DNA from: an uncultured Vampirovibrionales bacterium
Lineage (GTDB): Bacteria > Cyanobacteriota > Vampirovibrionia > Vampirovibrionales > Vampirovibrionaceae
Assembly (NCBI GenBank): GCA_964390635.1
Contig: CAYMIG010000001.1
Span: 203,321 to 267,320, forward strand
Reading direction: 5' to 3'
DNA length: 64,000 bases
In this document: one piece after another, positions 1-28,199 of the stretch
Layout of the letters: each line of letters starts with the position of its first letter
Numbering within the stretch: the first letter of the stretch is position 1
Notes under the pieces: model-generated
Databases searched by the model: none
Told to the model about the DNA's origin: nothing
Seen by the model: only the letters and a program-made list of their open reading frames with translations
Program-made: the position numbers and the translations under genes

Positions 1-676
1 CGACGGCAAAGCAAAAGGTCACCTGCTTGCCGTCCATCACCAGCGAGGCGTTCCCGGTCACGGCAAAGCCCGCCGCCGCCAGTTTTTTCTTTTCTCCCTC
101 GATGGAGGTACTGACCAGGGCCAGGCAGGGGAAGCCGCCGTCATCCAGGCGGGGAGGCCGGGCCGGGGCCTCGTCGGCGGGCTCGATAAGCAGGTACAGG
201 GGCGTGGCCTGCAAGGGGGTTTGCAGGCTCAGCCAGGTGCCCGGAAAATTGGGGTACCTGGGTTCGGTGGGCTGGAAACCCAGCAGCCGCCAAAAGGCCA
301 CGGATTCTTCCGGCTTGGGGCTGGCGCAGGCCAGGGTGTCCAGGCGAAAATCGGGGGCTGTGGCCACAACGCGGCCATGCGCGTTGAGGGGCGCAAAGGC
401 CGGCAAGGCGGCGTCGGTTTCAAAGAGCCCTTGCAGAAATCCCGATTGCGAACCGACGTGGCCATGATCCAGCAGCTCAACGGGGTAGCTGCCCGGCTTT
501 TCCATCAGGCAGGCTGCATGCAAGGGCTGAAAATTCTGCAAAAGCGGCGCTTTCATGGCGGCATTCGCCTTGTCGCGCTCATGGAAAACCTCGCGGTAGC
601 CCAGCGCCCGGAAGTGCTCTTTCTCTGCGTCGATGTCCGTCGCGCTCCAGGCGACGTGATCCGCCTTGATGATCAT
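1..676 (-). CDS. VOC family protein (glyoxalase/bleomycin-resistance/extradiol-dioxygenase fold), 5-prime partial at window edge
   Basis: Manual minus-strand translation from ATG at 676 gives MIIKADHVAWSATDIDAEKEHFRALGYREVFHERDKANAAMKAPLLQNF..., a typical two-module VOC pattern. It stays open to base 2 (no stop), so the C-terminus lies outside the window. Its start overlaps the stop of the upstream ligase gene (ATGA). It is absent from the ORF track because no stop codon is in the window. Confidence 0.5.
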   Translation of the reverse strand, partial: MIIKADHVAWSATDIDAEKEHFRALGYREVFHERDKANAAMKAPLLQNFQPLHAACLMEKPGSYPVELLDHGHVGSQSGFLQGLFETDAALPAFAPLNAHGRVVATAPDFRLDTLACASPKPEESVAFWRLLGFQPTEPRYPNFPGTWLSLQTPLQATPLYLLIEPADEAPARPPRLDDGGFPCLALVSTSIEGEKKKLAAAGFAVTGNASLVMDGKQVTFCFAV

Positions 677-2181
677 GGCAGGGCTGATTGCCGGCTTAGG
701 GCTTGCAAGGCTGGCTTGTCAATCTTCCCGTTGCTGTTCTTGGGCAGGCTTTCCATGGGCATAAAAACATCAATCTTATAGTCGGCGCCCAGTTGCTGGG
801 TCAGGGCCAGGTTCAGCCGCTTCTCGAAATGGCGTGGGTCGTCCAGGCTTCCGCTTACGTAGGCGCAGGCGGTTTTTTCGCCCATCACCTCGTCCGGCAG
901 GCCGTAAACCACCAGTTCATCGCTGAACAGTCCGCTGGAAAGCACGAAGTCCTCAATGCGGCGGGGGCTGAGGTTGACCCCGCCCCGGATGATGAGGTCT
1001 TTCTTGCGCCCGGTGATGAACAGCCGCCCTTGCTCATCCAGCCGTCCCAGGTCGCCTGAGCGGTAGCGGCCCTCCGAGAAGTATGTTTCCGTCTGGTGGT
1101 TCAGGTAGCCCTTGAACATCCAGGGCACGTCCAGCAGGATTTCGCCGTCCTCATCCAGCCTCATGTTCACGCCGGGCAGCAGGCGGCCCACGCTGTTTTC
1201 CGCATGCGGGTGCAGGGGAGCATTGGAGGCGTTGAACAGGGTTTCGGAAAGCCCGTAGCTCTCGTAGAGCGGCAGGTTGTAGCGGGCTTCGAAGCGTTGC
1301 TTCTGGGCTTCGCTAAGGGGGGCGGTGCCCACGCAGCCCACAATCGGGGTTTGGCTGGCGTAATTCACCCCCGCTTCCCCCCGATCCAGCTTCAGCAGCA
1401 ACGAAACGATGGTGGGATTGAACCAGAAGGCGTTGGCCCCGTAGCGAATAGGCTGCTCCCAGAATCGGCTGACCCCACCAATGCTGAACCGCTCGCCCAG
1501 GATGACCTGGCTGCCGGCCAGAAACGGCAGCAGCATCAGGTTGAGGATGCCTGCCATGTAGCTCATGGGCAGGTTGTGGTAGAACCGATGGCTGGGCTGG
1601 AAGTCGAAAAAGGCGTTGAAGGCCAGTGCCGAGCCCGCCAGGTTCGAGAAACTATGACAGACCCCCTTGGGCAGGCCGGTGGAGCCCGACGTGAAGGTGA
1701 TAAGGCTGACCCGATCGAGGTCGGCGGCCAGCCAGGTTTGCCTGAAATCTTGCCAGGGGAGCGTCTGGGCGGGTTCGTCCAGGGCGGCCAGCAGCCGCTG
1801 GGGATTGATGCGGGGCGCATTGCCGCAAACGCCCACGCTTTCCACCATGGCGTCGGCTTCAAACAGCGACATGATGTCGGCAATGCCTTGCTCGCCCTTT
1901 TGGGGATCGATGGGCACGTAGGTCCAGCCGTTCAGCACGCAGGCGAAATACAAAACCGGCATTAGCAGGCTGTTGGGCAGGATGACGGCCAGCCGGGCAT
2001 CCGGTTTCAATCCCGCTTCCCGCAGGATGCGGCTGCACACCTCCACCCGGTGGAAAAATTCAGCCGTGGTCAGTGGTGCCGGGCGGCTCGGGTCAATAAT
2101 AAAGTCGGCATCCCAGCGCCGTTCCAGCAGCCCTTCAAGGCTGGGCGGTGTAAGTGGGTTCTTTGAAGGAGGAGAGGGCAT
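673..2181 (-). CDS. AMP-dependent synthetase/ligase (adenylate-forming enzyme, acyl-CoA synthetase-like)
   Basis: 502-aa ORF with the adenylation core motif TSGSTGLPKGV, plus YGxSE and GDL-like downstream motifs. The start is uncertain; the annotated ATG overlaps the 3-prime end of the upstream aldolase gene by 47 nt. Confidence 0.75.
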   Translation of the reverse strand: MPSPPSKNPLTPPSLEGLLERRWDADFIIDPSRPAPLTTAEFFHRVEVCSRILREAGLKPDARLAVILPNSLLMPVLYFACVLNGWTYVPIDPQKGEQGIADIMSLFEADAMVESVGVCGNAPRINPQRLLAALDEPAQTLPWQDFRQTWLAADLDRVSLITFTSGSTGLPKGVCHSFSNLAGSALAFNAFFDFQPSHRFYHNLPMSYMAGILNLMLLPFLAGSQVILGERFSIGGVSRFWEQPIRYGANAFWFNPTIVSLLLKLDRGEAGVNYASQTPIVGCVGTAPLSEAQKQRFEARYNLPLYESYGLSETLFNASNAPLHPHAENSVGRLLPGVNMRLDEDGEILLDVPWMFKGYLNHQTETYFSEGRYRSGDLGRLDEQGRLFITGRKKDLIIRGGVNLSPRRIEDFVLSSGLFSDELVVYGLPDEVMGEKTACAYVSGSLDDPRHFEKRLNLALTQQLGADYKIDVFMPMESLPKNSNGKIDKPALQALSRQSALP

Positions 2182-3229
2182 CCTGTTCCTTGCCTATGTA
2201 ACTGCCAAAATTGTATTCGCCGAGATACAGGTCGGGATTCTTCTCCAGCCGCTGGGCAATGGCCTCCAGTACATCGGGTTTGACGTCCACCTTGTCCACC
2301 TTGCATAGCTCGATGATGAGCAGCTCCGGGCTGACGCGGTATTTGGCCGAAAATTTCTGGATGTGGTGCATGTAGCTGGAGTGGAAGTCCGCAAAGCCGG
2401 CGACGATATCCAGGGATTCCTTGCCCTTCAGCTTGACCAGGGGCTTGATGAACTTCTTGCCGATTTCCATCACCTTGAGCAGGTTGATGTTCAGGGGAAC
2501 GCCTTTTTTGAGGAGCGCGGCCACCACCAGCTCGGTGGAGGCATTGCCGGCGCTGCGGCCCAGCCCTTGCAGGGAGGTGTCAATCAGCTCGATGCCAAGA
2601 TCTGCGGCGTACAGGGCGTTCGATACGGCAAGCCCTAAGTTGTCATGGCCGTGGAAGCCCACCTTCAGCTCGCTCACCTCGCGGATGGCGTTGAAATAGG
2701 CTTCAATCTGGTGCGGGAACATGCCCCCCGATGAATCCACGATGTACACGCCGTCCACGCCATAAGACTCCGACAGCTTGACCTGCTTGGCAAAGTCCTT
2801 GGGCGCCATGGCATACGACTTCATGTAGTTGGCCATCACGGTCATGCCGTAACCCTTGGCCTTCTCAATGAAGGGGCGCGAGCTTTCCACGCGGGTCACG
2901 TCGGTTCCCACGCGGATGAATTTCATGCCGTATTGCGCGGCCATGTCCAGGTCTTCCAGGCGGGCGATGCCCGGAATGCAGAACATACCCCACTGGGCCT
3001 TCTCTATGGCCCCGGCAGCGGCCATGATGTATTCCTCATCGGTGTGGATGGCCTCGCCATGCCCCATGTTGCTGCCGTTGAAACCGACCCCGTGGCCGAT
3101 TTCGATCCATTCCACGCCCGCAGCCTCCAGCTCCTTGCAGATGACCGCCGTATCAGAGGTGGTAAACGAGAAGTTGACGGCGTAACTGCCGTCACGAAGG
3201 GTGGTATCGAGAATCTGGATGGGAGGCAT
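2135..3229 (-). CDS. HMGL-like (DRE-TIM metallolyase) aldolase, 4-hydroxy-2-oxovalerate aldolase (DmpG/BphI/MhpE)-like
   Basis: 364 aa. N-terminal ILDTTLRDGSYAVNFSF...EIGHGVG matches the pyruvate carboxyltransferase/HMGL-like domain of DmpG-type aldolases. No DmpF-type acetaldehyde dehydrogenase partner is adjacent. Confidence 0.7.
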   Translation of the reverse strand: MPPIQILDTTLRDGSYAVNFSFTTSDTAVICKELEAAGVEWIEIGHGVGFNGSNMGHGEAIHTDEEYIMAAAGAIEKAQWGMFCIPGIARLEDLDMAAQYGMKFIRVGTDVTRVESSRPFIEKAKGYGMTVMANYMKSYAMAPKDFAKQVKLSESYGVDGVYIVDSSGGMFPHQIEAYFNAIREVSELKVGFHGHDNLGLAVSNALYAADLGIELIDTSLQGLGRSAGNASTELVVAALLKKGVPLNINLLKVMEIGKKFIKPLVKLKGKESLDIVAGFADFHSSYMHHIQKFSAKYRVSPELLIIELCKVDKVDVKPDVLEAIAQRLEKNPDLYLGEYNFGSYIGKEQDALSSFKEPTYTAQP

Positions 3230-3382
3230 CGGTTCCGCCTGCTGGTTGCTGGGTCTGGGGAATTCCCCCCAATGGTACTACAAGCCCACCCCGTTTGTCC
3301 CGAAGTGTCCGCAAGCATCCCCGCGGCAAGCCCGAGACCCGCCAGGCGAGAGATTCGGGACGTGTAACGTTTTTAAACGGGG

Positions 3383-4078
3383 CTATTTTTTCCGGCAGAC
3401 CACCAGGTGCCAGTGGTAATCGTAGCCGAAGCACTCGTCATGCACGGAGCCGAAGGTGAACTCCCCAAAGTGGCTGGCGAAGGTGCGCTCAATGTCCGCC
3501 TCGTCCTCGAACATGCGCAGCACTTCGCCGTTGCGCACGTTGAAGGGGTCGTTCTTGATGATCTGGTAGCCGGGCTTCAGCGTTTCGCTGCCCTGGTAGA
3601 TGAAGCAGGTCTTCTTGGGGATGGACATGACCAGGTGGCCGCCCGGCTTGGTGATGCGGGCGAATTCCGCCACGTGGCGATCGAAGTTTCGGTCGGCGCC
3701 CAGGTAGTAGCAGGAATTCCAGGACAGCAGGAAGTCGAAGGTGTTGTCCGCAAAGGGTGTTGTGTCGTTGGTGCCCACTTGCAGGTCGAACTTGGGGGCG
3801 CCCAGCATAGCCAGGTTCTGGCGGGCCTTTTCCACGATGGGCTCGCTTACTTCCACGCCGTAAATATCGAAGCCTAGCGTGCTGAGGAAGTGCAGGTTCA
3901 CCCCGTCGCCGCAGCCGATATCGCAGATCTTCTTGCCCTCGTAGCCCAGATCGCGCAGGTTGAGCCGGGGGTAGGCCCCCTTGAACATGCGAATGACGTA
4001 TTCCGCGGGGTAGGTGAGGTCTTTGTAAGACAGGTACTCCCGGGTCCATTCCTTCTGGAAGTCATAGGTGGTGGTCAT
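3383..4078 (-). CDS. class I SAM-dependent methyltransferase
   Basis: Motif I ICDIGCGDGVNL plus acidic motif II region. The start was chosen at the internal ATG (MTTTYDFQKEW), confirmed as CAT at 4076-4078 on the plus strand. The upstream 50 codons of the ORF look like non-coding read-through. Confidence 0.7.
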   Translation of the reverse strand: MTTTYDFQKEWTREYLSYKDLTYPAEYVIRMFKGAYPRLNLRDLGYEGKKICDIGCGDGVNLHFLSTLGFDIYGVEVSEPIVEKARQNLAMLGAPKFDLQVGTNDTTPFADNTFDFLLSWNSCYYLGADRNFDRHVAEFARITKPGGHLVMSIPKKTCFIYQGSETLKPGYQIIKNDPFNVRNGEVLRMFEDEADIERTFASHFGEFTFGSVHDECFGYDYHWHLVVCRKK

Positions 4079-4305
4079 GCTGTACTCCTTGCCAGTGGCA
4101 CGTGGCCTACTATACTGTGAAGGCGGCATGCAGGCCAGCCTTTTTTTCAGGCGGAATTCCCAGCAGCTTGCTGTCGCCGGCCTTTGGGCGAGCCTTGCCA
4201 CGGACGCGCCCGCTGCCCTCCCCGGTCGCATACGGGACCGTTATACAAACGCCTGTTTTTCAGTTACAATTTCTGGCATTCCCAAAGACCCCGGAGACCC
4301 TTGCA
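4079..4305. promoter_or_regulatory. divergent intergenic/promoter region between the methyltransferase operon (minus) and the pseA-hisHF operon (plus)
   Basis: 227-bp non-coding gap between two divergently transcribed gene sets. GGAGA Shine-Dalgarno 8 nt upstream of the ATG at 4306. Confidence 0.3.
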
Positions 4306-5510
4306 TGCAGGAACTGGAGCGCTGCAGCCGCTGTACCGTCCCACTGACGTGGGAAACCATTTACCTGGACGAGAACGGGGTTTGCAACGTTTGCAACAAC
4401 TGGAGCACCAAGCAGCACAAGATTGACTGGGAGGCTCGCGAGCGTCAGCTTCTGGCCATCTTCGAGGATGTGAAGGCAAAAAAAGCCGATTACGATTGCA
4501 TTCTGCCCTTTAGTGGCGGGAAAGACTCTACTTATACGCTGTATGCCATTGTCAAAAAGTACGGCCTGCGCCCTCTGGTGGTGTCCTTCGACCACGGATT
4601 CTACCGCCCCAAGATGCTGGCCAACCGCACCCGGGTCATCCGCCGCCTGGGCGTGGACATGATCACCATGACGCCCGACTGGCAGGTGGTTAAAAAAATG
4701 ATGGTGGAGGCCCTCATCCGGCGTGGCGACTTCTGTTGGCACTGCCACAACGGTGTGTTTGCCTATCCCATGCAGATGGCCGTCAAGCTGAAGGTGCCGC
4801 TGGTCATCTGGGGCGAAGGTGGCGGCGAGTACGAAGGCTACTTCAAGTTCGAGGACCTGGAAGACACCGACGAGTGGAAGTTCAACCGCCGCATCGTGCA
4901 AGGCATTCGGGCCGTCGATATGGCCGGCTTCATCGGCGAGGACGTCCGCAAGCTGCAGCCTTACATCTATCCCAGCCGCCAGGAGCTGGAGGAGGCCGGC
5001 GTTAAGAGCATCCCGCTGGGCAAGTTCATCCCCTGGGACGTGAAAAAGCAGGTGGAAATCATCCGCCAGGAGCTGGGCTGGGAGCTGGATGAAATCGAAA
5101 GCGGCTTCCCCGGGCCTACTTACGAGAAGATCGAGTGCATGTTCCAGGGCGTGCGCGATTATGCCAAGTACCTCAAGCGGGGTTTCTCCCGCATCACGCA
5201 TCTTACCTCGCTGGATATCCGCCATGGGCGCATGGATCGCGACGAAGCCATGCGCCACATCGAGCAACTGGAGCACCGCAAGCCCAAAAGCCTTTCGGTA
5301 TTCCTGGAATATACCGGCCTGAGCGAGGCGGAGTTCAACGAAATCATCCTGCAGCACGTCATTGCCCCGGCCCAGCCCATCGACCCCGCCACCATCCCCG
5401 AGGGCGAGGCCCTGCCGGATCAGGATCTGTGGTTCCGGGATCCCGCCGATGCCGGTTGCGGTACCTGCCATAGCAACGGCTGCGGCGGCGCGCTCCCGCT
5501 GGAAGTCTGA
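4306..5510 (+). CDS. pseA: N-acetyl sugar amidotransferase (PP-loop ATP pyrophosphatase; PseA/WbuX/LfnA family) for acetamidino-sugar formation
   Basis: PP-loop motif ILPFSGGKDST; N-terminal Cys-rich segment (CSRCTVPLTW...CNVCNNW) typical of this family. Followed immediately by HisH/HisF paralogs as in WbuXYZ-type modules. The start was moved to the ATG at 4306 with an SD. Confidence 0.75.
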
Positions 5511-5539: not shown

Positions 5540-6907
5540 ATGTCCCCCACCCAAACGCAAGCCAAGTCCGCCACCCGTACCTCCATGCTGGAGCTGCTCC
5601 GGAAGATTTACGGGTTTCGCTGGGCGCCCGTCTCCGAGGAAACCGATTGGGGCAACGCGGTGCTGTGCCAGGAGTTGCCTTTCCAGGTGCATGAATACCC
5701 TTCGGGCTTGGAATTCAACGGCTGGGTGGTTCCGCAGAAGTGGAAACCCGTGAAAGCCGAAATCTGGAAGGACGGCGAGCTGATTTACGACGGCATGCAA
5801 AGCCCCCTGGGCGTGGTGGGCTATGCCGATTCTTTCAACGGCAAAGTCAGTGGCCGGGAGCTGAAAGAGCACCTCTGTTACCATCCCAACTTCCCCAATG
5901 CGCTGATTTACCACTGCGACTACTACTATAAACCCTGGCGGCGTACCTGGGGGATGAGCGTGACCCACAACTTCTTCAAAACCATTGAGGATGACGCGGA
6001 ATACGAGGTCAACCTGCAGACCGTGTTTGAGGACGGCACCCTCAAGGTGCTTGACTACTACCTGCCAGGCGAATCCGAGGAGACCATTATCCTTAACAGC
6101 CACAATTGCCATACCGGCCAGGCCAATGATGATATCGCCGGCGTGGTAGTGGGTGTGGAAGTGCTGCGTCGACTGGCCGAAAAGCCCAAGCGCCGCTACA
6201 GCTACCGGCTTATTGTGACCGCCGAGCACATCGGCACGGTGTTTTACCTGCATAGCCTGACGCCGGAGCAGATTGGCAAGTTCAAATACGGCATGTTCCT
6301 TGAAATGCTGGGCAACAAGAACCGTTTCGCCTTCCAGGAGTCGTTTACCGGCACCAGCGATCTGGATCGGGCCGTGCACAACTACATGCGCTATCACCAC
6401 GCCGACTATCACAGCGATCGCTTCCGCAAGATCATCGGCAACGACGAGACCGTGTGGGAAGCCCCCGGCTACGAGATTCCCTGTATCTCGCTTTCCCGCT
6501 GGCCGTACCTCGAATACCACTCCAGCATGGACACCGACGACATCATCCACGAGGAAATGCTGGAGGAGGCCACCAACGCGGTGCTGGGCTACCTGGAAAT
6601 CCTGGAAACCAACGCCGTGATGCACCGCCACTTTGACGGGCTGGTGTGCCTCAGCAATCCCAAGTACGATTTGTACGTCTCGCCGGGCGATCCCAGCATC
6701 AACCCGATGGTGCCCGAGGAGCAGCACCGCTGGAACTACCTGATGAACTGCATTACCCGCCATTTTGACGGGCGCACCACCATTCTGGACATTGCCGAAA
6801 AATACGACCAAAACTACTTTAACGTGCTGGAGTATGTGCGCAAGTTCGAGGAAAAGGGCCTGGTCACCATCGAACCCGCCCTGCCGCCCCGGGAGGCCAG
6901 CCGATGA
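5540..6907 (+). CDS. M28-peptidase-fold / DUF4910-like domain protein found in polysaccharide loci
   Basis: 455 aa. Central segment NCHTGQANDDIAGVVVGVEVLRRL resembles the M28 aminopeptidase-like metal-site region of DUF4910 proteins. C-terminal ~80 aa look like a winged-helix. Family call is from memory and motif only. Confidence 0.4.
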   Translation: MSPTQTQAKSATRTSMLELLRKIYGFRWAPVSEETDWGNAVLCQELPFQVHEYPSGLEFNGWVVPQKWKPVKAEIWKDGELIYDGMQSPLGVVGYADSFNGKVSGRELKEHLCYHPNFPNALIYHCDYYYKPWRRTWGMSVTHNFFKTIEDDAEYEVNLQTVFEDGTLKVLDYYLPGESEETIILNSHNCHTGQANDDIAGVVVGVEVLRRLAEKPKRRYSYRLIVTAEHIGTVFYLHSLTPEQIGKFKYGMFLEMLGNKNRFAFQESFTGTSDLDRAVHNYMRYHHADYHSDRFRKIIGNDETVWEAPGYEIPCISLSRWPYLEYHSSMDTDDIIHEEMLEEATNAVLGYLEILETNAVMHRHFDGLVCLSNPKYDLYVSPGDPSINPMVPEEQHRWNYLMNCITRHFDGRTTILDIAEKYDQNYFNVLEYVRKFEEKGLVTIEPALPPREASR

Positions 6908-7581
6908 GCGTGACGGTCAACACCGCCGTTTCCGCCCAGGCGGAAATGCCCGGCGCATGTAGTCGCACCCGGGTGGTGGGCATCATCAATTCCGGGCTGG
7001 GCAATGTGGGTTCCGTGGCCAGCGCGTTCGAGTTTTACCGCCATCCGGTGCGGCTGATGAGCGATCCCCGCGAGCTGGCCGAAGCCGACGTGCTGGTGCT
7101 GGCCGGCGTGGGCAACTTTGCCGCCGCCATTAAGCGGCTGGAGGACATGGGCATGGTGGATGCCCTGAAAACCCAGGTGCTGGAACACCATAAGCCCCTC
7201 ATGGGTATTTGCCTCGGCATGCAACTGATGGCCGATCGCAGCCTGGAGGACGGCGAACATGCCGGCCTGGGCTTCATTTCCGGTGATGTGGTCAAAATCG
7301 AGGGCGACAACCTGCGGGTGCCGCACATCGGCTGGAACCAGGCCGTGCCGCGCGAAACGGCCCTGTTTCAGGGTATCCGCTACGGTTCGTTCTATTTTAT
7401 GCACAGCTACCACTTTATCCCGCGCAACCCCGACGATATCCTGGCCATCACGCAGTATGGCCCGCTTCAAGTGGTCTCCGCCGTGCGCCGGGGCAATATC
7501 CTGGGGGTGCAGTTCCACCCGGAAAAAAGCCAGGGCGATGGTTTGCGCATTATCCGCAACTTCATGGAGAGCCTGTCATGA
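6904..7581 (+). CDS. hisH: imidazole glycerol phosphate synthase HisH-like glutamine amidotransferase paralog (WbuY-type)
   Basis: Class-I GATase pattern GIINSGLGNVGSV...LVLAGVGNF...GICLGMQLM...HIGWN..FHPEKS. ATGA overlap with the upstream gene. Sits in a glycan locus next to an amidotransferase, not in a his operon. Confidence 0.8.
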   Translation: MSVTVNTAVSAQAEMPGACSRTRVVGIINSGLGNVGSVASAFEFYRHPVRLMSDPRELAEADVLVLAGVGNFAAAIKRLEDMGMVDALKTQVLEHHKPLMGICLGMQLMADRSLEDGEHAGLGFISGDVVKIEGDNLRVPHIGWNQAVPRETALFQGIRYGSFYFMHSYHFIPRNPDDILAITQYGPLQVVSAVRRGNILGVQFHPEKSQGDGLRIIRNFMESLS

Positions 7582-15593: not shown

Positions 15594-15977
15594 TTACCGA
15601 ATTTTGCAGGCTGTCAGCCCCAGCCGCTGGGAGATGGCCGCCCGGTTGCGGGCCACCAGGTTGTAAACCAGCACTTCGGCCAGCAGGAAAACGGGAATAA
15701 TATAAAGCAGCCAGATGAAGTACCGGTAGGGGGGAAATTGCAGGAAAAACCGGTTGAAGGCGAGCGCCCCGTGGCTGACCTGGCCGGTTTCGGTATCCAG
15801 AAAGTACATGCCCTTCTCAAAGCTGGCGTCGGACAGTTTATGGGCCTGCTTGAACGCCTCGTCCAACCCCTGGTAGGGCTCCACCTTGACCCGCCTGGTG
15901 GCCCGCAACGGGGCGATGGTGTCCACGAATTTCTGGCAGATGCCGCAGTCTCCGTCGTAAAAAAGGTATCGGGTCAT
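15594..15977 (-). CDS. thiol-disulfide oxidoreductase DCC family (DUF393)
   Basis: 127 aa starting MTRYLFYDGDCGICQKFV; the DGDCxxC motif is diagnostic of DCC/DUF393. The start ATG was confirmed as CAT at 15975-15977 on the plus strand. Confidence 0.7.
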   Translation of the reverse strand: MTRYLFYDGDCGICQKFVDTIAPLRATRRVKVEPYQGLDEAFKQAHKLSDASFEKGMYFLDTETGQVSHGALAFNRFFLQFPPYRYFIWLLYIIPVFLLAEVLVYNLVARNRAAISQRLGLTACKIR

Positions 15978-15982
15978 GGCGT

Positions 15983-16579: not shown

Positions 16580-16615
16580 GGGACTGGGTGATCCGGTTGG
16601 GGAGGTAACGGATGC

Positions 16616-17458: not shown

Positions 17459-17542
17459 GTTCGCTTCACCTCCAGGGTTTTGCAACAGTGTAGTGGAAAA
17501 CCGGGCGTTCGCCAACCGCAATTGGCTTTGCGCAAAGGTTTA

Positions 17543-18514: not shown

Positions 18515-18572
18515 GGGGATTCCTGTTGCGGATCACGGATGGGGCTACCAATTTTGTTATAGTACTACTGTT

Positions 18573-19637
18573 ATGTCTCCATTCAAAATCGGATTTGAGG
18601 CCAACCCCACCGGGGGGCCGGGCATTTTTCTCACCCGCCTGCGCACCGCCCTGGAGGAAAGCGGCCATTTCGACGCCGCGCATCCCGACGCCTGGATTCA
18701 GCTGTGCTATGCCCCCATGCCGGAGGCCATCATGCAAAATGCCGCTGTCCGCAAGGTAATTCGGGTGGATGGGGTTTACAGCTACCGGCATCGTCTGCTG
18801 CCCGTGCCGCTGCCGGGGGTGGACGACTGGCTTAGCCGCCGCGGGAACCGCAAGCGCAACCGCCCCATCGTGCGGAACCTGGCCCTGGCCGATGAAATTG
18901 TCTACCAGTCGGAATTCTCCCGGCAGGCCACCTGGAAGTTCATTACCCCTACCCCGCCGGGCGCGGTGATTTTCAACGGGGTGGACACCCGCCAGTTCGC
19001 CCCGCCCTCGCCCCGCATTCGGGATGATCGCCTTGTGAACATCCTGATTTCGCATTCCTACCGACCGCATAAACGCCTGCATGAGGCGATGCGTATTATT
19101 GCCGAGTTGAAACGCCGCGACGCTGCCCGCCGGTGGCACCTGCATGTGGCGGGGGGGGATGACGGCCTGTCCATTCCCTATGCCCAACAGGTGATGCAGG
19201 CTGAAGGGCTTGGGCCGGACGTGGTGACGTTTTACGGAAAGCTGCCCTATGACCACCTGTTCGAGCTTTATGGCCGTTGCGATTTCGTGCTGGGGCTTTC
19301 CTTCTGGGACTTTTGCCCCAACGTCATCGTGGAGGCCCTGGCCTGCGGGTTGCCGGTGCTGGGCGTCGATTTTGGCGGCATCCCCGAACTCACCGGGGAG
19401 GCCGGTCGCCTGGTGAAGGAGGAGATCGCCTTCGACTACCAGGACCTGTACGATTTCAAGGCCCTGCCCAGGGTGAATGCCGGGCAGTATGTCGACGAGG
19501 CGCTTTGCCTGCTCGATCGCCTGGCAGAATATCAGCACCTGGCCCGAGAACGCGCCGTGCGGGAGCTGGATATCCGGGTGACGGCCCGGCGCTACCTGGA
19601 CGCTTGCCAGGCGGCTAGTCAATCAGTTCCCAGTTAA
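18573..19637 (+). CDS. glycosyltransferase family 4 (GT-B, retaining)
   Basis: C-terminal segment ...DFCPNVIVEALACGLPVLGVDFGGIPELTGEAG matches the GT4 E-x7-E region. The start was moved to the internal ATG at 18573. Confidence 0.7.
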   Translation: MSPFKIGFEANPTGGPGIFLTRLRTALEESGHFDAAHPDAWIQLCYAPMPEAIMQNAAVRKVIRVDGVYSYRHRLLPVPLPGVDDWLSRRGNRKRNRPIVRNLALADEIVYQSEFSRQATWKFITPTPPGAVIFNGVDTRQFAPPSPRIRDDRLVNILISHSYRPHKRLHEAMRIIAELKRRDAARRWHLHVAGGDDGLSIPYAQQVMQAEGLGPDVVTFYGKLPYDHLFELYGRCDFVLGLSFWDFCPNVIVEALACGLPVLGVDFGGIPELTGEAGRLVKEEIAFDYQDLYDFKALPRVNAGQYVDEALCLLDRLAEYQHLARERAVRELDIRVTARRYLDACQAASQSVPS

Positions 19638-20667
19638 GGGCGGTGCCGCGAGAGATGGGGCGGCTGGCTTTTTTGCCGATGACATCGGTGTAAAACTTGG
19701 GAGGCAGCCCGTAGCCGGGGCGAATAATCCGCACGTTCCTCTCGGTAAAGGTCTCGCCGGCTTGCATGCTTTCCGTCACGTAGATTGACCGCCGAAAAAC
19801 ACGGTTCTGCCTCTCTTTGCCGGTCAGGCCGTAATGCACCCGTCCCAGGGCGGCATGCGCGGTGCGGGTTGCCTCGACCAGCTGTTTCAGCTCGGCGGGC
19901 TCCAGCGAGAAGGCGGAATCAACCCCGCCATCGGCCCGGCACAGGGTAAAATGCTTTTCAATGGCGACTGCTCCCAGCGCGGTGGCGGCCACGGCGGCAC
20001 CGATGCCCAGGGTATGGTCGGAAAGACCCACCGGCACGTCAAAAAGCTGGGAAAGATGCGGGATGGTACGCAGGTTGCTTTCGGCGGGATCCGCCGGGTA
20101 GCTGCTGGTGCATTTCAGCATTATGAGATGTTCGCAACCCGCTTCCCGGGCGGCCTGGACGGCTTCCTGGATTTCCGCCACCGTGGCCATGCCGGTGGAC
20201 ATAATCAGCGGTTTGCCGGTGGCAGCCACCTTGCGGATGAGGGGGAGATCCACCAGCTCAAACGAGGCGATTTTGTACAGGGGGGCGTCCAGCGATTCCA
20301 GAAAATCCACGGCGGTGGGATCAAAAGGCGAGCTGAAGCCGATCAGGCCTAGTTCCCGGCAGCGCTTGAAGATAGGCTCATGCCAATCCCAAGGGGTGTG
20401 GGCTTTCTGGTACAGTGCATACAGCGATTCGCCCTTCCACAGGCTTTCCGGGTTCTCAATGAAGAATTCGCCCTCGCCCTTGTCAATGGTCATGGTGTCC
20501 GCGGTGTAGGTCTGGATTTTGAGGGCGTCCGCACCCGCGGCGGCGGCGGCTTCCACAATGGCCAGGGCCCGTTCCAGCGACTGGTTGTGGTTGCCGGACA
20601 TCTCGGCAATGATAAAGGGCGGATGCTCTGGCCCGATGGGGCGGTTTTGAATGCTGAAGGGCTTCAT
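19615..20667 (-). CDS. pseI: pseudaminic acid synthase (NeuB-family nonulosonic acid synthase)
   Basis: 350 aa from MKPFSIQNRPIGPEHPPFIIAEMSGNHNQSLERA... The NeuB/PseI N-terminal TIM-barrel signature and a C-terminal antifreeze-like (SAF) domain are present. The start overlaps the pseGH stop (ATGA). Confidence 0.8.
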   Translation of the reverse strand: MKPFSIQNRPIGPEHPPFIIAEMSGNHNQSLERALAIVEAAAAAGADALKIQTYTADTMTIDKGEGEFFIENPESLWKGESLYALYQKAHTPWDWHEPIFKRCRELGLIGFSSPFDPTAVDFLESLDAPLYKIASFELVDLPLIRKVAATGKPLIMSTGMATVAEIQEAVQAAREAGCEHLIMLKCTSSYPADPAESNLRTIPHLSQLFDVPVGLSDHTLGIGAAVAATALGAVAIEKHFTLCRADGGVDSAFSLEPAELKQLVEATRTAHAALGRVHYGLTGKERQNRVFRRSIYVTESMQAGETFTERNVRIIRPGYGLPPKFYTDVIGKKASRPISRGTALNWELID

Positions 20668-22181
20668 CGCGGGCTTTCCGTTGGGGTGGGGCAATACGGT
20701 GGCTCTATTGTAGCGCATGCCGGGGCTGGCGACAGCCACTTGCGGAAAGCGTGCGAATGGGGGCGGTATCCGGCTTTCCGAAAGGCTTTGAGCGAGGCCT
20801 GGTTGCCGTCCAAAATAGTGGCGTCAATGTAACGAATCCCGGGGCAGTTTTTTTGCAGCCAGCGGCTTCCTTCTTCCAGCAAGGCCGTGCCAAAACCCCG
20901 TCCGTGGGTGCCCGGAACCAGATACACCGAGACCACGGCGCCTTCGCCATCCAAGTCGTAGCGCAGCACGCCGACCGGCTCGCCTTTTGACTCCCCGATG
21001 AGCAAGACCCGGTGCGGGTTGGCCAAGGTGCGATTGAACCATGCGGCGTGGGTTTCCCAGTCGATTTCGGCGGGATCCAGGGCGAAGCGACGGTTGCTTT
21101 CATCGTTTCGCCAGGTGAAGACCTGCTCGCAGTCAGAAGGTTCCGCCTGTCGAAGGGTTAATGGCGGCTGGCAAAGTATTCGGGCTACCCGGTTTGCGCC
21201 CTGCCCGTCTACCAGTTCCCTCCCGTGGCGGGACAGAAACGCTCGCAACGCGGGATTGTCCAGCAGGGCCTCGATTTGCCGGGCGATCGTTGCCTCGTTG
21301 ACCTCCTCGTGGCTTCCCAGGTAGAGCAGATAGCCGTCGTGGGCCAGGTTGCGGGTGATTTCCACCTGGTTGTCCGCAATGGTGAGCACGATGGCGGGCA
21401 GGCCCGCGCTGAGCCGCTCCCACGTGGCCGTGCCACCGGCGCCGACCGAGAGGGTGGCCCGGCCCATCAATTCCGCCATGTTGTCAACCTGGCAGTGGAA
21501 GCTGGCCCCCAGTTCCCGGCACAGCGCCTGCACGACTGTCTTTTGGGGATTGCTGTTGCCCACTACCACATCCACGGCCAAGGTGGGTCGCTTCAGCCCG
21601 CGTAGGGCCTCCAGAGCTTTAAGAGTGGCCCCCGCCGGATCGCTTCCACCGAAAAACACCAGCACGCGTTCATTTTCGCGCCGGGTAGTATCCCCGCCCG
21701 CCAGGGCAAAGTCAGGCCGCAATAGCGCATAGCCAGGGCCGGCCAGCAGGCTGCAATGGGCGGGGGTTAAATGGTTATAGCGTCCTACAGGCGAGGGAAA
21801 GTAGTTCTGATCGAGCAGCAGCTCACAATCGTGATGACGATTTGCCAGATCGTCCACTACCAGAACCCTTTGCGCGGATGGGCGCATGGCGCTTTCCCAT
21901 TCTGCATTTAGCCCGTAATGGTCTACCACCAGCCAGTCAAAGCACTTGCCCTCAAGCCGATCGATTGCGCTCGAAGGGCTGAAAGCGCTATCTTCAGCCA
22001 GGGTTAGCACCTCAAAGCCTTTTTCGCCTATCCAGCCGTTCATGTGGCCGGGTAGTTCCGCGCACAGGAACGTACAGGTTGTGCCCCGTGCCCGCAAGGC
22101 TTCCGCCAGCGTGAGGCAGCGCATAACGTGCCCGGTTCCAATGGAAACGGAGGCGTCGACCCGAAAAAGAACCTCAATCAC
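20664..22181 (-). CDS. pseG: bifunctional PseG (UDP-2,4-diacetamido-2,4,6-trideoxy-beta-L-altropyranose hydrolase) - PseH (GNAT N-acetyltransferase) fusion
   Basis: N-terminus VIEVLFRVDASVSIGTGHVMRCLTLAEAL matches the PseG start (MKVLFRSDSSxxIGxGH...) and uses a GTG start codon. The C-terminal ~170 aa carry GNAT motifs (VGVLRYDLDGEGAVVSVYLVPGTHGRGFGTALL). Confidence 0.75.
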   Translation of the reverse strand: MIEVLFRVDASVSIGTGHVMRCLTLAEALRARGTTCTFLCAELPGHMNGWIGEKGFEVLTLAEDSAFSPSSAIDRLEGKCFDWLVVDHYGLNAEWESAMRPSAQRVLVVDDLANRHHDCELLLDQNYFPSPVGRYNHLTPAHCSLLAGPGYALLRPDFALAGGDTTRRENERVLVFFGGSDPAGATLKALEALRGLKRPTLAVDVVVGNSNPQKTVVQALCRELGASFHCQVDNMAELMGRATLSVGAGGTATWERLSAGLPAIVLTIADNQVEITRNLAHDGYLLYLGSHEEVNEATIARQIEALLDNPALRAFLSRHGRELVDGQGANRVARILCQPPLTLRQAEPSDCEQVFTWRNDESNRRFALDPAEIDWETHAAWFNRTLANPHRVLLIGESKGEPVGVLRYDLDGEGAVVSVYLVPGTHGRGFGTALLEEGSRWLQKNCPGIRYIDATILDGNQASLKAFRKAGYRPHSHAFRKWLSPAPACATIEPPYCPTPTESPR

Positions 22182-23348
<1,167 letters not shown>

Positions 23349-23358
23349 GGCCCGCGCG

Positions 23359-24510
23359 GTGATTCCCTACGGAAGGCAGAATATCAGCGAGGCGGATATC
23401 CAGGCGGTTGTCGATGTGCTGCGCTCCGATTTCATCACCCAGGGGCCGGCTATCGAGCGTTTCGAGAAATCGGTGGCTGCCTACTGCGGAGTGAAATACG
23501 CGGTGGCAGTCAGTAATGCCACGGCGGGTTTGCATATTGCCTGTCTGGCTGCCGGGCTGAAAGCCGGGGAGTGGCTTTGGACCGTGCCCAACACGTTTGT
23601 GGCTTCCGCCAACTGCGCCCTGTATTGCGGGGCGAATGTCGATTTCGTGGACATTGACCCTCAAACCTACACTATCAGCCTGGACGCCCTCCACCTCAAG
23701 CTGGAAACTACCCCGCCGCAAAAGCGGCCCCGCGTTGTGGTGCCCGTACACTTTGCCGGGCAGTCCTGCGATATGATCGCAATCCAGGATCTGGCCGAGC
23801 AATACGGCTTTACCGTGTTGGAAGACGCTGCCCATGCCATTGGGGGGCGCTATGATGGTGAACCGATTGGCTGTTGCCGTTACTCCGATATGGCGGTGCT
23901 CAGCTATCACCCGGTTAAAATCATTACCACGGGCGAGGGTGGAATGGTTCTGACCAACCGGGAAGACCTCTATGAGGCCCTAATTCGGCTTCGAACTCAC
24001 GGAATCACGCGAAATGCCCCGCTTTTGCAGCATAAGGATGAAGGCCCCTGGTACTACGAACAGCTGGAGCTGGGCTATAACTACCGCCTGACGGATATTC
24101 AGGCCGCGCTGGGCCATAGCCAGATGGGTCGGCTGGATGCCTTCGTCCTGCGTCGCCGGGAACTGGCCGCCCGTTATGACGATTTGCTCAAGGATTTGCC
24201 GGTGGTTCGCCCCTGGCAGCACCCCAAAACGGAATCCGCCTGGCATTTGTATGTGGTTAAAATCTCCCCCGAGGCAGGCAAGAGCCGCCGGGAGGTTTTT
24301 GAAGCCCTCCGCGCGGCGGGGATTGGCGTTAACGTGCATTACATCCCGGTGCATACCCAGCCCTATTACCGGACCCTTGGATTCAAACCCGGCGATTTCC
24401 CCCAGTCAGAGGCTTATTATGCGCAGGCCATTACCCTGCCCCTATACTACGACCTCACCGAGACGGAGCAGGATGAGGTAGTATCCGCACTGGCCCGGGC
24501 GCTCCAATGA
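23359..24510 (+). CDS. pseC: UDP-4-amino-4,6-dideoxy-N-acetyl-beta-L-altrosamine transaminase (DegT/DnrJ/EryC1 family)
   Basis: VIPYGRQNISEADIQAV... start typical of PseC, with a GTG start. A PLP-lysine region (SYHPVKIITTGEGG) is present. Confidence 0.8.
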   Translation: MIPYGRQNISEADIQAVVDVLRSDFITQGPAIERFEKSVAAYCGVKYAVAVSNATAGLHIACLAAGLKAGEWLWTVPNTFVASANCALYCGANVDFVDIDPQTYTISLDALHLKLETTPPQKRPRVVVPVHFAGQSCDMIAIQDLAEQYGFTVLEDAAHAIGGRYDGEPIGCCRYSDMAVLSYHPVKIITTGEGGMVLTNREDLYEALIRLRTHGITRNAPLLQHKDEGPWYYEQLELGYNYRLTDIQAALGHSQMGRLDAFVLRRRELAARYDDLLKDLPVVRPWQHPKTESAWHLYVVKISPEAGKSRREVFEALRAAGIGVNVHYIPVHTQPYYRTLGFKPGDFPQSEAYYAQAITLPLYYDLTETEQDEVVSALARALQ

Positions 24511-28193: not shown

Positions 28194-28199
28194 GGTTTT

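What the first reader, a model, noticed from the sequence alone, without database searches (positions are those of the whole stretch)
1..4078. Operon of methyltransferase, DmpG-like aldolase lacking DmpF, adenylating ligase and VOC protein at the locus edge
A 4-hydroxy-2-oxovalerate-aldolase-like enzyme without its obligatory acetaldehyde dehydrogenase partner is overlapped with an AMP-forming ligase and a VOC-fold protein. This looks like a pathway for making and activating a small hydroxy/keto-acid substituent (for example hydroxybutanoyl-, glyceroyl- or lactoyl-type). Such a substituent would then be N- or O-acylated onto the nonulosonic acid. This would be a new route to such decorations.
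Basis: inference. Interest (0 to 1): 0.5.

Follow-up and report, generated by a model that had tools for sequence, protein, structure and literature searches.

The report
Aldolase-based acyl-decoration cassette for nonulosonic acids
The four genes are real and form the start of an eight-gene operon, found in very diverse bacteria and archaea, that most likely builds a small hydroxy/keto acid, loads it on a carrier protein and attaches it to a pseudaminic-acid-type surface sugar; this route has not been described.

Summary
Observation confirmed. On the minus strand lie a SAM methyltransferase (3383-4078), a DmpG-like aldolase (2135-3229), an AMP-forming ligase (673-2181, overlapping the aldolase by 47 nt) and a VOC-fold protein (676 to past the window edge, ATGA overlap).

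The operon does not stop at the edge. A contig identical to the window over 262 nt continues with a cyclase-family metal hydrolase, a 93-aa carrier protein, an AAC(3)-like N-acyltransferase and a second DUF4910 (Cj1295-like) protein. No dmpF or hydratase gene is present.

The same cassette recurs in 80 loci from more than 15 bacterial phyla and several archaeal lineages. It usually sits beside pseudaminic or legionaminic acid genes, sometimes with an AcpS-type phosphopantetheinyl transferase or with fused carrier domains.

The aldolase clade keeps the DmpG metal and pyruvate site. DmpG's His21 and Tyr291 are swapped (Tyr16/His283) in all 310 members checked.

The identity of the acid, and the roles of the VOC protein and the cyclase, remain unresolved. 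I found no paper describing this cassette. I rate it a new variant of a known kind, interest about 0.6.

The parts
3383..4078 (-). SAM-dependent methyltransferase (231 aa), first gene of the operon. In related loci it usually sits after the VOC gene.
   Evidence: Pfam Methyltransf_11/25/31. The exact 231-aa protein is in the public collection. Orthologues at 35-60% identity lie inside the cassette in 25-27 of 80 loci.
3230..3382 (-). 153-nt spacer between the methyltransferase and the aldolase.
   Evidence: No terminator-like site falls in the spacer. The one hit in the scanned region lies inside the aldolase gene, and the number of hits is not above the shuffle expectation.
2135..3229 (-). 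DmpG-like class II pyruvate aldolase (364 aa) of a distinct clade. Asp13/His193/His195 and Arg12 are kept. DmpG His21 is Tyr16 here and DmpG Tyr291 is His283.
   Evidence: PDB 8ih7 and 1nvm, about 190-200 bits. These residues are near-invariant in 310 family members and invariant in alignment A1.
673..2181 (-). AMP-forming adenylating ligase (502 aa). It overlaps the aldolase by 47 nt.
   Evidence: AMP-binding 172 bits. No NCBIfam model reaches its cut-off. The nearest solved relatives are oxalate-CoA ligase, malonyl-CoA synthetase and an NRPS A domain. It is adjacent to the aldolase in 65-66 of 80 loci. One in-frame aldolase~ligase fusion ORF exists, P0267.
1..676 (-). Two-module VOC-fold protein. 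225 of its 242 codons are in the window; the stop lies 52 nt beyond the edge. ATGA overlap with the ligase stop.
   Evidence: Family invariants are His7, Lys42, Glu67 and Glu233. AlphaFold pLDDT 95.2. Foldseek matches GLOD4 and glyoxalase I with TM 0.6-0.69 at 13% identity or less. 395 clusters at 50% identity in 1.84 billion representatives.
4079..4304 (.). Divergent intergenic region between the methyltransferase start and the likely true start (ATG at 4305) of the WbuX-type amidotransferase gene.
   Evidence: The WbuX model matches from residue 85 of the 4068-5510 ORF. Two sigma-70-like sites lie on the + strand at 4089-4116 and 4242-4270.
5540..6907 (+). DUF4910/DUF2172/M28-like protein, a Cj1295-family paralogue. 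It belongs to the divergent WbuX-HisH-HisF-GNAT block, and a second copy ends the acyl operon outside the window.
   Evidence: Pfam. PDB 3k9t 'putative peptidase'. Conserved His/Asp/Glu positions across 41 members. Second copy shown.
19615..24510 (.). Pseudaminic acid core genes of the same locus: NeuB/PseI (19615-20739, -), PseG~GNAT fusion (20664-22181, -), PseB (22299-23348, +), PseC (23359-24510, +).
   Evidence: Pfam.

Best explanation
The four genes are the first half of an eight-gene, tightly packed minus-strand operon: methyltransferase, aldolase, ligase, VOC protein, cyclase-family metal hydrolase, 93-aa carrier protein, AAC(3)-like acyltransferase, DUF4910 protein. I read it as a self-contained cassette that replaces an N-acetyl group of the locus's pseudaminic acid with a different short oxygenated acyl group.

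Proposed steps:
1. The DmpG-like aldolase runs in the synthetic direction. It condenses pyruvate with a small aldehyde or hydroxy-aldehyde to give a 4-hydroxy-2-oxo acid (a 3-deoxy-2-ulosonic acid).
2. The ligase adenylates this acid and loads it onto the phosphopantetheine arm of the carrier protein.
3. The VOC protein, the methyltransferase and possibly the cyclase-family hydrolase tailor the acid or the tethered acyl group.
4. A metal amidohydrolase (DUF4910 and/or the cyclase-family protein) frees an amino group on the sugar.
5. The AAC(3)-like enzyme transfers the acyl group to that amine.

Shown here: the domain identities, the operon structure, the intact aldolase metal/pyruvate site, the carrier Ser motif, and the conserved synteny with NulO genes. 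Inferred: the direction of the aldolase reaction, the substrates, the order of steps, the acceptor nitrogen and the roles of the VOC and cyclase proteins.
For: Operon anatomy:
- The overlaps or gaps between genes are 47 nt, an ATGA overlap, 22 nt, 11 nt, a 4-nt overlap and 3 nt.
- The extension contig L083 matches window 1-262 with 0 mismatches. It carries Cyclase, PP-binding, Antibiotic_NAT and DUF4910/DUF2172 genes.

Conservation in 80 loci from bacteria and archaea:
- Ligase in 65-66 loci, cyclase in 55-63, VOC in 47, DUF4910 in 42-43, NAT in 37, methyltransferase in 25-27, free carrier protein in 11, AcpS-type PPTase in 10.
- 43 of 78 loci have NulO genes within 10 kb and 65 of 78 have NulO or transfer-module genes. 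Both Pse-type and Leg-type loci occur.
- Fusions link the parts physically: cyclase~carrier (P0128), carrier~NAT (L013), aldolase~ligase (P0267).

Aldolase:
- It belongs to the DmpG clade.
- Arg12, Asp13, His193 and His195 are kept. Tyr16, His283 and Phe83 are near-invariant in 310 members.

Other parts:
- The ligase's nearest solved relatives activate small oxo- or dicarboxylic acids.
- The cyclase keeps the HxGTHxDxPxH metal motif of kynurenine formamidase and isatin hydrolase.
- DUF4910 keeps His/Asp/Glu positions of M28 type.
- The carrier protein has an invariant Asp-Ser motif.
- Cj1295, a DUF4910 protein, is required for the 5-N-(2,3-di-O-methylglyceroyl) pseudaminic acid of C. jejuni (PMC3068675).
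Against: - There are no biochemical or mass-spectrometric data for any member.
- The operon has no obvious reductase or decarboxylase, so a 2-hydroxy or chain-shortened acyl product needs help from elsewhere. An aldo-keto reductase lies at 24507-25370 in the same locus.
- Two candidate amidohydrolases are present and their division of labour is unknown.
- The ligase's closest solved relatives are CoA ligases, so the activated form could be acyl-CoA.
- 13 of 78 related loci show no NulO or transfer gene within the sequence held.
- The Pfam match of the free carrier family is just under threshold, 20.1 against 20.8 bits.
- The aldolase~ligase fusion ORF degenerates at its end and may be an assembly artefact.
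Confidence: 0.62

Rival explanations
1. The same kind of acyl-supply and transfer cassette, but the acceptor is not the nonulosonic acid. It could be another amino sugar of the glycan, or the acyl group could be O-linked.
For: 13 of 78 related loci have no NulO gene in the sequence held. The window locus also encodes an MBOAT O-acyltransferase and several glycosyltransferases. AAC(3) enzymes acylate amino sugars in general.
Against: Pse or Leg genes are the commonest neighbours across unrelated phyla. The DUF4910 partner has a genetic link to an N5-acyl pseudaminic acid in C. jejuni. Many of the loci without NulO genes are short or truncated contigs.
Confidence: 0.13
2. The aldolase does not build the acyl skeleton. 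It might act as a retro-aldolase or oxaloacetate-type decarboxylase, or on a sugar aldehyde. The ligase would then activate an acid taken from general metabolism, such as a hydroxy acid or an amino acid.
For: The His/Tyr swap and the Leu-to-Phe pocket change show that the active site differs from DmpG. Ten loci add a class I/II aminotransferase, which suggests amino-acid-like acyl groups in some variants. No aldehyde-supplying gene is evident.
Against: The aldolase and ligase are adjacent in about 65 of 80 loci, overlap here by 47 nt, and are once fused. That is best explained by the product of one being the substrate of the other. An aminotransferase next to a 2-oxo-acid-forming aldolase also fits the skeleton-building model.
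Confidence: 0.15
3. A fragment of a catabolic meta-cleavage (dmpFG/bphIJ-type) operon that happens to lie beside a glycan locus.
For: The NCBIfam subfamily model PRK08195 is passed, and public annotations name the protein 4-hydroxy-2-oxovalerate aldolase.
Against: No dmpF or hydratase gene lies in the window, in the 2.47-kb extension, or near the aldolase in 80 loci. The equivalog cut-off is missed. The catalytic His/Tyr pair is swapped in all 310 members. The family occurs in methanogens, CPR bacteria and DPANN archaea, always in glycan loci.
Confidence: 0.02
4. A small carrier-protein-dependent secondary-metabolite pathway unrelated to surface glycans, giving for example a butenolide or isotetronic-acid type product released by the cyclase-family enzyme.
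For: 4-Hydroxy-2-oxo acids lactonise readily (general chemistry, inference). A 'cyclase'-family protein is fused to the carrier domain in P0128.
Against: An N-acyltransferase and a DUF4910 protein follow in the same operon. Synteny with NulO genes is pervasive. All solved relatives of the cyclase are hydrolases.
Confidence: 0.05

Closest known systems
DmpG/BphI 4-hydroxy-2-oxovalerate aldolase with its DmpF/BphJ acylating aldehyde dehydrogenase (PDB 1nvm, 8ih7)
   Same: HMGL-like TIM barrel with a weak DmpG communication domain. Asp/His/His metal site and the pyruvate-binding Arg. Scores about 190-200 bits to the solved enzymes.
   Different: No DmpF partner and no catabolic context. DmpG His21 and Tyr291 are exchanged (Tyr16/His283), and BphI Leu87 is Phe83, in all 310 members. 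The neighbour, and possibly the physical partner, is an adenylating ligase. The presumed direction is synthesis, not cleavage.
Campylobacter jejuni NCTC 11168 Cj1295 region, which gives the 5-N-(2,3-di-O-methylglyceroyl) pseudaminic acid on flagellin
   Same: A DUF4910/DUF2172 aminopeptidase-like protein in a Pse locus, genetically required for swapping an N-acetyl for an oxygenated, O-methylated short acyl group (PMC3068675). An adjacent gene is annotated as an N-acetyltransferase (Cj1296/7, Table 1 of that paper). My recollection that the neighbouring genes include acyl carrier proteins and a methyltransferase, and that Cj1296/7 is of the AAC(3) type, is from memory and was not tested.
   Different: That locus has no DmpG-like aldolase, AMP-ligase, VOC or cyclase-family genes. 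A search for papers naming both this aldolase and pseudaminic acid returned none. The acyl-supply half is therefore different.
Treponema denticola FlaB glycan, a nonulosonic acid bearing a 2-methoxy-4,5,6-trihydroxy-hexanoyl group
   Same: The acyl group has the 2-oxy, 3-deoxy, 4-hydroxy pattern expected from pyruvate plus glyceraldehyde aldol addition, followed by C2 reduction and O-methylation. That would use an aldolase, a methyltransferase and an activating ligase (structure from PMC13439194; the chemistry is my inference).
   Different: I could not show that T. denticola carries this cassette. No Treponema protein appeared among the top 120 relatives of a spirochaete aldolase, and the original paper is not held. 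The operon here encodes no ketoreductase.
Vibrio cholerae O1 rfbKLMNO pathway, in which 3-deoxy-L-glycero-tetronic acid is N-acylated onto perosamine (recalled from the literature, not tested here)
   Same: A short 3-deoxy-aldonic acid is activated by an AMP-ligase on a dedicated carrier protein and transferred to a sugar amine.
   Different: A different sugar (perosamine). As I recall it, the acid there is proposed to arise by reduction of a carrier-bound dicarboxylic acid, not by an aldolase. It has no VOC, cyclase-family or DUF4910 proteins.
AAC(3) aminoglycoside N-acetyltransferases, FrbF and YokD (PF02522)
   Same: The transferase just outside the window matches PF02522 and the solved AAC(3) enzymes. 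Thr156, His159 and Glu162 are conserved in 38 members.
   Different: The matches are weak (E of about 6e-9 to 5e-5). In other genomes it is fused or adjacent to a carrier protein. This implies an acyl-carrier or unusual acyl donor rather than acetyl-CoA, and a NulO-type acceptor.
Kynurenine formamidase, isatin hydrolase and other 'cyclase' family proteins (PF04199)
   Same: The HxGTHxDxPxH metal motif and further conserved His/Asp/Glu residues.
   Different: It sits in a glycan-tailoring operon and is sometimes fused to a carrier domain. The substrate is unknown: a sugar N-acyl group, an alpha-keto-amide or a lactone.

Membership tests
DmpG/BphI 4-hydroxy-2-oxovalerate aldolase (TIGR03217 equivalog) | Score at or above the curated equivalog cut-off | tested here: not met
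   282.5 bits against a cut-off of 286. The broader subfamily model PRK08195 is passed, 304 against 229.
DmpG/BphI 4-hydroxy-2-oxovalerate aldolase (TIGR03217 equivalog) | Divalent-metal ligands (Asp18, His200, His202) and pyruvate-binding Arg17, in DmpG numbering | tested here: met
   Asp13, His193, His195 and Arg12 align to them. They are present in 309-310 of 310 relatives.
DmpG/BphI 4-hydroxy-2-oxovalerate aldolase (TIGR03217 equivalog) | Catalytic His21 and Tyr291 at their canonical positions | tested here: not met
   Position 21 is Tyr16 and position 291 is His283. The swap is found in 309-310 of 310 members.
DmpG/BphI 4-hydroxy-2-oxovalerate aldolase (TIGR03217 equivalog) | Adjacent DmpF/BphJ acylating aldehyde dehydrogenase and a meta-cleavage operon context | tested here: not met
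   None in the window, in the 2.47-kb extension or in 80 loci. All recurrent neighbour families were identified and none is DmpF or a hydratase.
DmpG/BphI 4-hydroxy-2-oxovalerate aldolase (TIGR03217 equivalog) | C-terminal DmpG communication domain | tested here: inconclusive
   PF07836 scores 24.8 bits, below the 27-bit cut-off. It is precomputed as present in only some relatives.
ANL superfamily adenylate-forming enzymes | AMP-binding N-domain, C-terminal subdomain and the catalytic Lys of motif A10 | tested here: met
   PF00501 scores 171.8 bits. PF13193 scores 23.1 bits, just under its 24.5 cut-off. The conserved T164-S-G...K172 loop and G485-K486 are found in 62-64 of 64 members.
ANL superfamily adenylate-forming enzymes | Membership of a named equivalog (substrate-defined subfamily) | tested here: not met
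   All 107 NCBIfam hits are far below their cut-offs. The best is 190 bits against 476.
VOC (glyoxalase/bleomycin-resistance/dioxygenase) superfamily | Paired beta-alpha-beta-beta-beta modules | tested here: met
   AlphaFold model with pLDDT 95.2 and pTM 0.92. Foldseek probability is 1.0 to GLOD4, glyoxalase I and other VOC proteins, with TM 0.6-0.69. Pfam scores sit at the threshold.
VOC (glyoxalase/bleomycin-resistance/dioxygenase) superfamily | Metal-binding residues on the first and last strands of the modules | tested here: inconclusive
   His7, Glu67 and Glu233 are invariant and align with the first His and last Glu of glyoxalase I. The fourth canonical ligand is not conserved. Lys42 and Asp178 are conserved in addition. 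The geometry could not be inspected.
Carrier-protein-dependent N-acyl tailoring of nonulosonic acids (Cj1295-type) | A DUF4910/DUF2172 protein within a NulO biosynthesis locus | tested here: met
   Two copies: window 5540-6907 and the last gene of the operon on L083. PseB, PseC, PseG and PseI are in the window.
Carrier-protein-dependent N-acyl tailoring of nonulosonic acids (Cj1295-type) | A dedicated carrier protein with a Ser attachment site, and an N-acyltransferase | tested here: met
   A 93-aa PP-binding protein with the WIDSF motif and a PF02522 protein on L083. Asp48-Ser49 are invariant in 12 members. AcpS-type PPTases occur in 10 loci.
Carrier-protein-dependent N-acyl tailoring of nonulosonic acids (Cj1295-type) | A modified N-acyl nonulosonic acid demonstrated as the product | not testable with these tools
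   This needs mass spectrometry or NMR of the glycan or the CMP-sugar pool.

The most novel reading that the evidence does not exclude
In this clade an adenylating ligase has taken the place of DmpF as the obligate partner of a DmpG-type aldolase. It would then be a synthetic aldolase-adenylase pair (adjacent, overlapping, occasionally fused) that hands a 3-deoxy-2-ulosonic acid straight to a carrier protein.

The cassette would also be the missing genetic basis of the '3-deoxy-aldonoyl' N-acyl decorations of bacterial and archaeal nonulosonic acids. The orphan 2-methoxy-4,5,6-trihydroxy-hexanoyl group of Treponema denticola flagellin would be one of these.
Probability: 0.25. Interest if true: 0.75.

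Novelty: new variant of a known kind. Interest (0 to 1): 0.6.

Why it matters
Nonulosonic acids (pseudaminic, legionaminic) coat flagella, capsules, S-layers and archaeal surfaces. Their N-acyl groups decide recognition by the immune system and by phages. The genes that install anything other than acetyl or acetimidoyl are largely unknown, as stated for example in PMC5378307 and, for cj1295, still in 2026.

This cassette is common: more than 3000 aldolase relatives were scored in each of two searches, spread over more than 15 bacterial phyla and several archaeal lineages. It is uniformly mis-named as a catabolic 4-hydroxy-2-oxovalerate aldolase. One Leptospira pan-genome paper lists an aldolase of that name among pathogen-clade genes and explains it as pollutant degradation; I did not check whether it belongs to this clade.

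Recognising the cassette gives:
- a testable gene-to-structure hypothesis for a new class of NulO decorations;
- a better annotation for thousands of genes;
- an example of a catabolic aldolase scaffold rebuilt, with swapped catalytic residues, for biosynthesis.

Tried and rejected
- **Catabolic dmpFG-type operon.** Rejected. No dmpF or hydratase gene lies beyond the edge or in 80 loci.
- **Methyltransferase as the N-methyl-acetimidoyl enzyme of the divergent WbuX/HisH/HisF block.** This was my first guess. Rejected, because its orthologues sit inside the aldolase cassette in 25-27 loci.
- **Link to Treponema denticola.** The original paper is not held. A homologue search seeded with a spirochaete aldolase listed no Treponema protein among its top 120 hits. 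The link remains untested and is not refuted.
- **Retrieving the 518-kb NCBI contig that holds the window.** It is not in the DNA index; only short Logan contigs were returned.
- **Literature searches** for aldolase, ligase, VOC or cyclase genes in nonulosonic acid loci returned nothing relevant. The library holds open-access papers only, so absence is not proof.
- **O2-dependent oxidative decarboxylation by the VOC protein** (HPPD-like, giving 3-hydroxybutanoyl). Considered and judged unlikely, because the cassette is common in strict anaerobes such as methanogens and Lachnospiraceae. Hydroxymandelate synthase and HPPD matches are poor, with TM of about 0.3.
- **Terminator in the methyltransferase-aldolase gap.** None found.

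Full report
**1. What is in the sequence**

The left end of the window carries four co-directional minus-strand genes.

- A class I SAM methyltransferase lies at 3383-4078 (231 aa; Methyltransf_11 62 bits). This exact 231-aa sequence is in the public protein collection, which fixes the start at 4078 rather than at the longer 4231 ORF.
- After a 153-nt spacer with no terminator-like site comes an HMGL-like/DmpG-like aldolase at 2135-3229 (364 aa).
- An AMP-binding ligase follows at 673-2181 (502 aa) and overlaps the aldolase by 47 nt.
- Last is a protein whose ATG (676-674) overlaps the ligase stop as ATGA and which runs off the window.

**2. The operon continues beyond the window**

Exact-protein look-ups returned short Logan contigs of the same or a near-identical strain.

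- L001 and L002 show that the VOC protein is 242 aa and is followed 22 nt later by a Cyclase (PF04199) gene.
- The full-length cyclase (P0127) led to contig L083, which overlaps window 1-262 with 0 mismatches and extends 2466 nt further.
- L083 encodes the 236-aa cyclase-family protein, a 93-aa PP-binding carrier protein (motif GWIDSFSF), a 262-aa Antibiotic_NAT (AAC(3)-like) protein overlapping it by 4 nt, and, 3 nt later, a DUF4910/DUF2172 protein.

The unit is thus methyltransferase, aldolase, ligase, VOC, cyclase-family hydrolase, carrier protein, N-acyltransferase, DUF4910. The dmpF and hydratase genes that would have refuted the idea do not.

**3. Genomic setting**

- Divergently transcribed from the methyltransferase is a WbuX-type amidotransferase. 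Its true start is probably the ATG at 4305, because the model matches from residue 85.
- That gene is followed by a first DUF4910 paralogue, HisH, a HisF/WbuZ protein, a GNAT, a CTP_transf_3 cytidylyltransferase and a formyltransferase-C-like protein.
- Further on lie an ABC exporter, a Capsule_synth protein, a GT2, NeuB/PseI, a PseG~GNAT fusion, PseB, PseC, an aldo-keto reductase, a class III aminotransferase, an MBOAT and a PMT_2 protein.
- The locus is therefore a pseudaminic-acid glycan locus spanning from at least -2.5 kb to about 31 kb. It also has an acetimidoyl-type amidotransferase module.
- The rest of the window (35-64 kb) is ordinary metabolism.

**4. The cassette is conserved across life**

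- The aldolase has more than 3000 scored relatives, many at about 60% identity in Methanoregula, Methanobacterium, Woesearchaeota, Micrarchaeota, CPR bacteria, Babeliales, Ignavibacteriales and Gammaproteobacteria.
- A scan of one genome per species returned 291 confirmed loci, of which I kept 80.
- tblastn with the window's proteins and de novo clustering of all ORFs give the same picture. There is a same-strand cassette in this order: [AcpS-type PPTase], aldolase, ligase, VOC, [methyltransferase], [class I/II aminotransferase], cyclase family, [carrier protein], AAC(3)-like NAT, DUF4910.
- Counts out of about 80 loci, many of them truncated: ligase 65-66, cyclase 55-63, VOC 47, DUF4910 42-43, NAT 37, methyltransferase 25-27, free carrier 11, PPTase 10, aminotransferase 10.
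- Carrier domains are also found fused to the NAT (L013) or to the cyclase-family protein (P0128 on L084).
- One ORF reads through from the aldolase into the ligase (P0267). This is weak evidence.
- PseB, PseC, PseG, NeuB or the cytidylyltransferase lie within 10 kb in 43 of 78 loci, and 30 loci have two or more of them.
- Some loci are of the legionaminic type, with a NeuC-like epimerase, a PtmE-like nucleotidyltransferase and GFO/IDH/MocA oxidoreductases.
- No recurrent neighbour family is a DmpF or a hydratase. The others I identified are ABC transporters, GT2, PIG-L and polysaccharide deacetylases, radical-SAM enzymes and methyltransferases.

**5. The aldolase**

- It falls in the DmpG clade. 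PRK08195 scores 304 bits (cut-off 229) and TIGR03217 scores 282.5 bits (cut-off 286). Isopropylmalate, homocitrate and citramalate synthases and HMG-CoA lyase all score about 100 bits or less.
- The best solved relatives are 8ih7 and DmpG 1nvm.
- The ungapped alignment to 1nvm maps DmpG Arg17, Asp18, His200 and His202 to Arg12, Asp13, His193 and His195.
- DmpG His21 maps to Tyr16 and DmpG Tyr291 maps to His283.
- BphI Leu87 and Leu89 (DmpG Leu88 and Leu90) map to Phe83 and Ile85.
- In 310 family members these residues are present in 309-310 sequences.
- From published work on BphI (recalled, not tested here), His20 is the base for the C4 hydroxyl, Tyr290 controls C4 stereochemistry, and Leu87/Leu89 shape the aldehyde and donor pockets.
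- My inference is that the class II pyruvate-aldolase chemistry is retained while the catalytic pair and pocket are rebuilt. That is consistent with a different aldehyde and/or the opposite stereochemistry, and with no need for a tunnel to DmpF.

**6. The other proteins**

- **Ligase.** It reaches no NCBIfam cut-off. Its nearest solved relatives are oxalate-CoA ligases, malonyl-CoA synthetases and a gramicidin A domain. That is compatible with a small acid bearing a carbonyl next to the carboxylate. The core motifs, including the A10 Lys, are conserved.
- **VOC protein.** Sequence alone is borderline. A model built on 82 homologues is confident (pLDDT 95.2). It matches two-module VOC proteins (GLOD4, maize glyoxalase I, a B. 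cereus metalloprotein) with TM 0.6-0.69 at 13% identity or less. His7, Lys42, Glu67 and Glu233 are invariant. The family is small and dedicated: 395 clusters at 50% identity among 1.84 billion representatives, all 200-290 aa among the 150 listed. Its reaction is unknown. By analogy with glyoxalase I and methylmalonyl-CoA epimerase I suggest an isomerisation or epimerisation next to a thioester, but this is speculation.
- **Cyclase-family protein.** It keeps the HxGTHxDxPxH motif and other metal-site residues. Its solved relatives are metal-dependent hydrolases, kynurenine formamidases and isatin hydrolases. An amide or lactone hydrolase is therefore more likely than a cyclase.
- **DUF4910.** It matches only the uncharacterised 3k9t but conserves M28-like His/Asp/Glu positions.
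- **NAT.** It matches AAC(3) enzymes, FrbF and YokD.

**7. Mechanism proposed**

1. Aldol addition of pyruvate to a small aldehyde or hydroxy-aldehyde gives a 4-hydroxy-2-oxo acid.
2. The ligase adenylates it and loads it on the carrier protein.
3. The VOC protein and methyltransferase tailor it. In some genomes an aminotransferase, a second methyltransferase or a B12-radical-SAM enzyme does so as well.
4. An amidohydrolase de-N-acylates the sugar. Candidates are DUF4910, as proposed for Cj1295 (PMC3068675), and/or the cyclase-family protein. Loci without DUF4910 often have PIG-L or polysaccharide-deacetylase genes.
5. The AAC(3)-like enzyme performs the N-acyl transfer.

With the neighbouring WbuX/HisH/HisF module, the end product could be a Pse carrying an acetimidoyl group on one nitrogen and the new acyl group on the other. 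That is the same pattern as Pse5Am7Gra of Tannerella forsythia (PMC5378307).

Candidate acyl groups are the 3-deoxy-aldonoyl or -ulosonoyl series. The 2-methoxy-4,5,6-trihydroxy-hexanoyl group on the T. denticola flagellin NulO (PMC13439194) has exactly the substitution pattern expected from pyruvate plus glyceraldehyde followed by reduction and O-methylation. I could not test whether T. denticola has the cassette, and the operon has no reductase of its own.

**8. Novelty and limits**

- None of seven full-text searches I ran for it turned up a description of this cassette (with follow-up). NulO-modifying enzymes are described as poorly known.
- The logic of acid, adenylation, carrier and N-acyl transfer to an amino sugar is known in principle. 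Examples are the C. jejuni Cj1295 region and, as I recall it, the V. cholerae O1 tetronate pathway.
- The acyl-supply half is new: a DmpF-less, residue-swapped DmpG-type aldolase coupled to a ligase, a dedicated VOC family and a formamidase-like hydrolase. So is its very wide distribution.
- Everything about function is inferred from sequence, predicted structure and synteny.
- The source organism of the window is unidentified.

Noticed in passing
window 4068-5510 (+): The WbuX-type N-acetyl-sugar amidotransferase ORF has about 79 extra N-terminal codons that overlap the methyltransferase start. The family model matches only from residue 85, and an ATG at 4305 (MQELERC...) is the likely start. 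With HisH (6904-7581) and HisF/WbuZ (7578-8357) it forms an acetimidoyl-type amidation module next to the acyl cassette.
   Followed up: partly
window 5540-6907 (+) and L083:2130-2729: The locus has two DUF4910/DUF2172 paralogues. The window copy is only about 25-30% identical to the cassette-type copies in other loci, but 50% identical to a copy in L013 that sits near GNAT and formyltransferase-C-like genes, as here. This suggests two subfamilies with different partners.
   Followed up: partly
window 8913-9728, 24507-25370, 25395-26717 (+): A CTP_transf_3 cytidylyltransferase, an aldo-keto reductase and a class III (GSA-type) aminotransferase recur together in other Pse loci (L013, L042, L047; aminotransferase and cytidylyltransferase also in L004 and L026). 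Their joint role is unknown. The reductase is a candidate for the missing 2-keto reduction.
   Followed up: no
window 20664-22181 (-): A fusion of a PseG-like Glyco_tran_28_C domain with a C-terminal GNAT (PseH-like) domain. Its ORF overlaps the NeuB/PseI ORF by about 75 nt.
   Followed up: no
window 26781-29117 (+) and 29175-31034 (-): An MBOAT O-acyltransferase, followed by a 305-aa protein with no Pfam match, and a PMT_2 (ArnT/PMT-like) glycosyltransferase. These hint at additional O-acylation and at a lipid- or protein-linked acceptor for the glycan.
   Followed up: no
window 15594-16700 (-): A 368-aa ORF whose C-terminal third is a DCC1-like thiol-disulfide oxidoreductase domain, inside the glycan locus. 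The neighbouring ORFs 14017-15570 (-), 16730-17767 (+) and 18396-19622 (-) have no Pfam match.
   Followed up: no
P0128 / L084:7741-8775, L013:14556-15587, P0267: Domain fusions occur in relatives: cyclase-family~carrier, carrier~AAC(3)-like NAT, and an aldolase~ligase read-through ORF whose end degenerates and may be an assembly artefact.
   Followed up: partly
P0239, P0240: Cyclase-family proteins about 52% identical to the one here are present in Nitrosopumilus maritimus and Nitrosopumilus sp. S6. The cassette may therefore exist in cultured ammonia-oxidising archaea.
   Followed up: no
literature, PMC12032809: A Leptospira pan-genome study lists '4-hydroxy-2-oxovalerate aldolase' among pathogenic-clade genes, alongside UDP-GlcNAc 2-epimerase and WcaG, and explains it as pollutant degradation. 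It may instead be a member of this glycan-tailoring clade.
   Followed up: no
window 56941-62697: An aldehyde dehydrogenase, a PreA/PreT-like dihydropyrimidine dehydrogenase pair (58448-59710 and 59703-61175, -) and a cytosine/purine/uracil permease (61111-62697, -). This is an ordinary pyrimidine-catabolism cluster unrelated to the finding.
   Followed up: no
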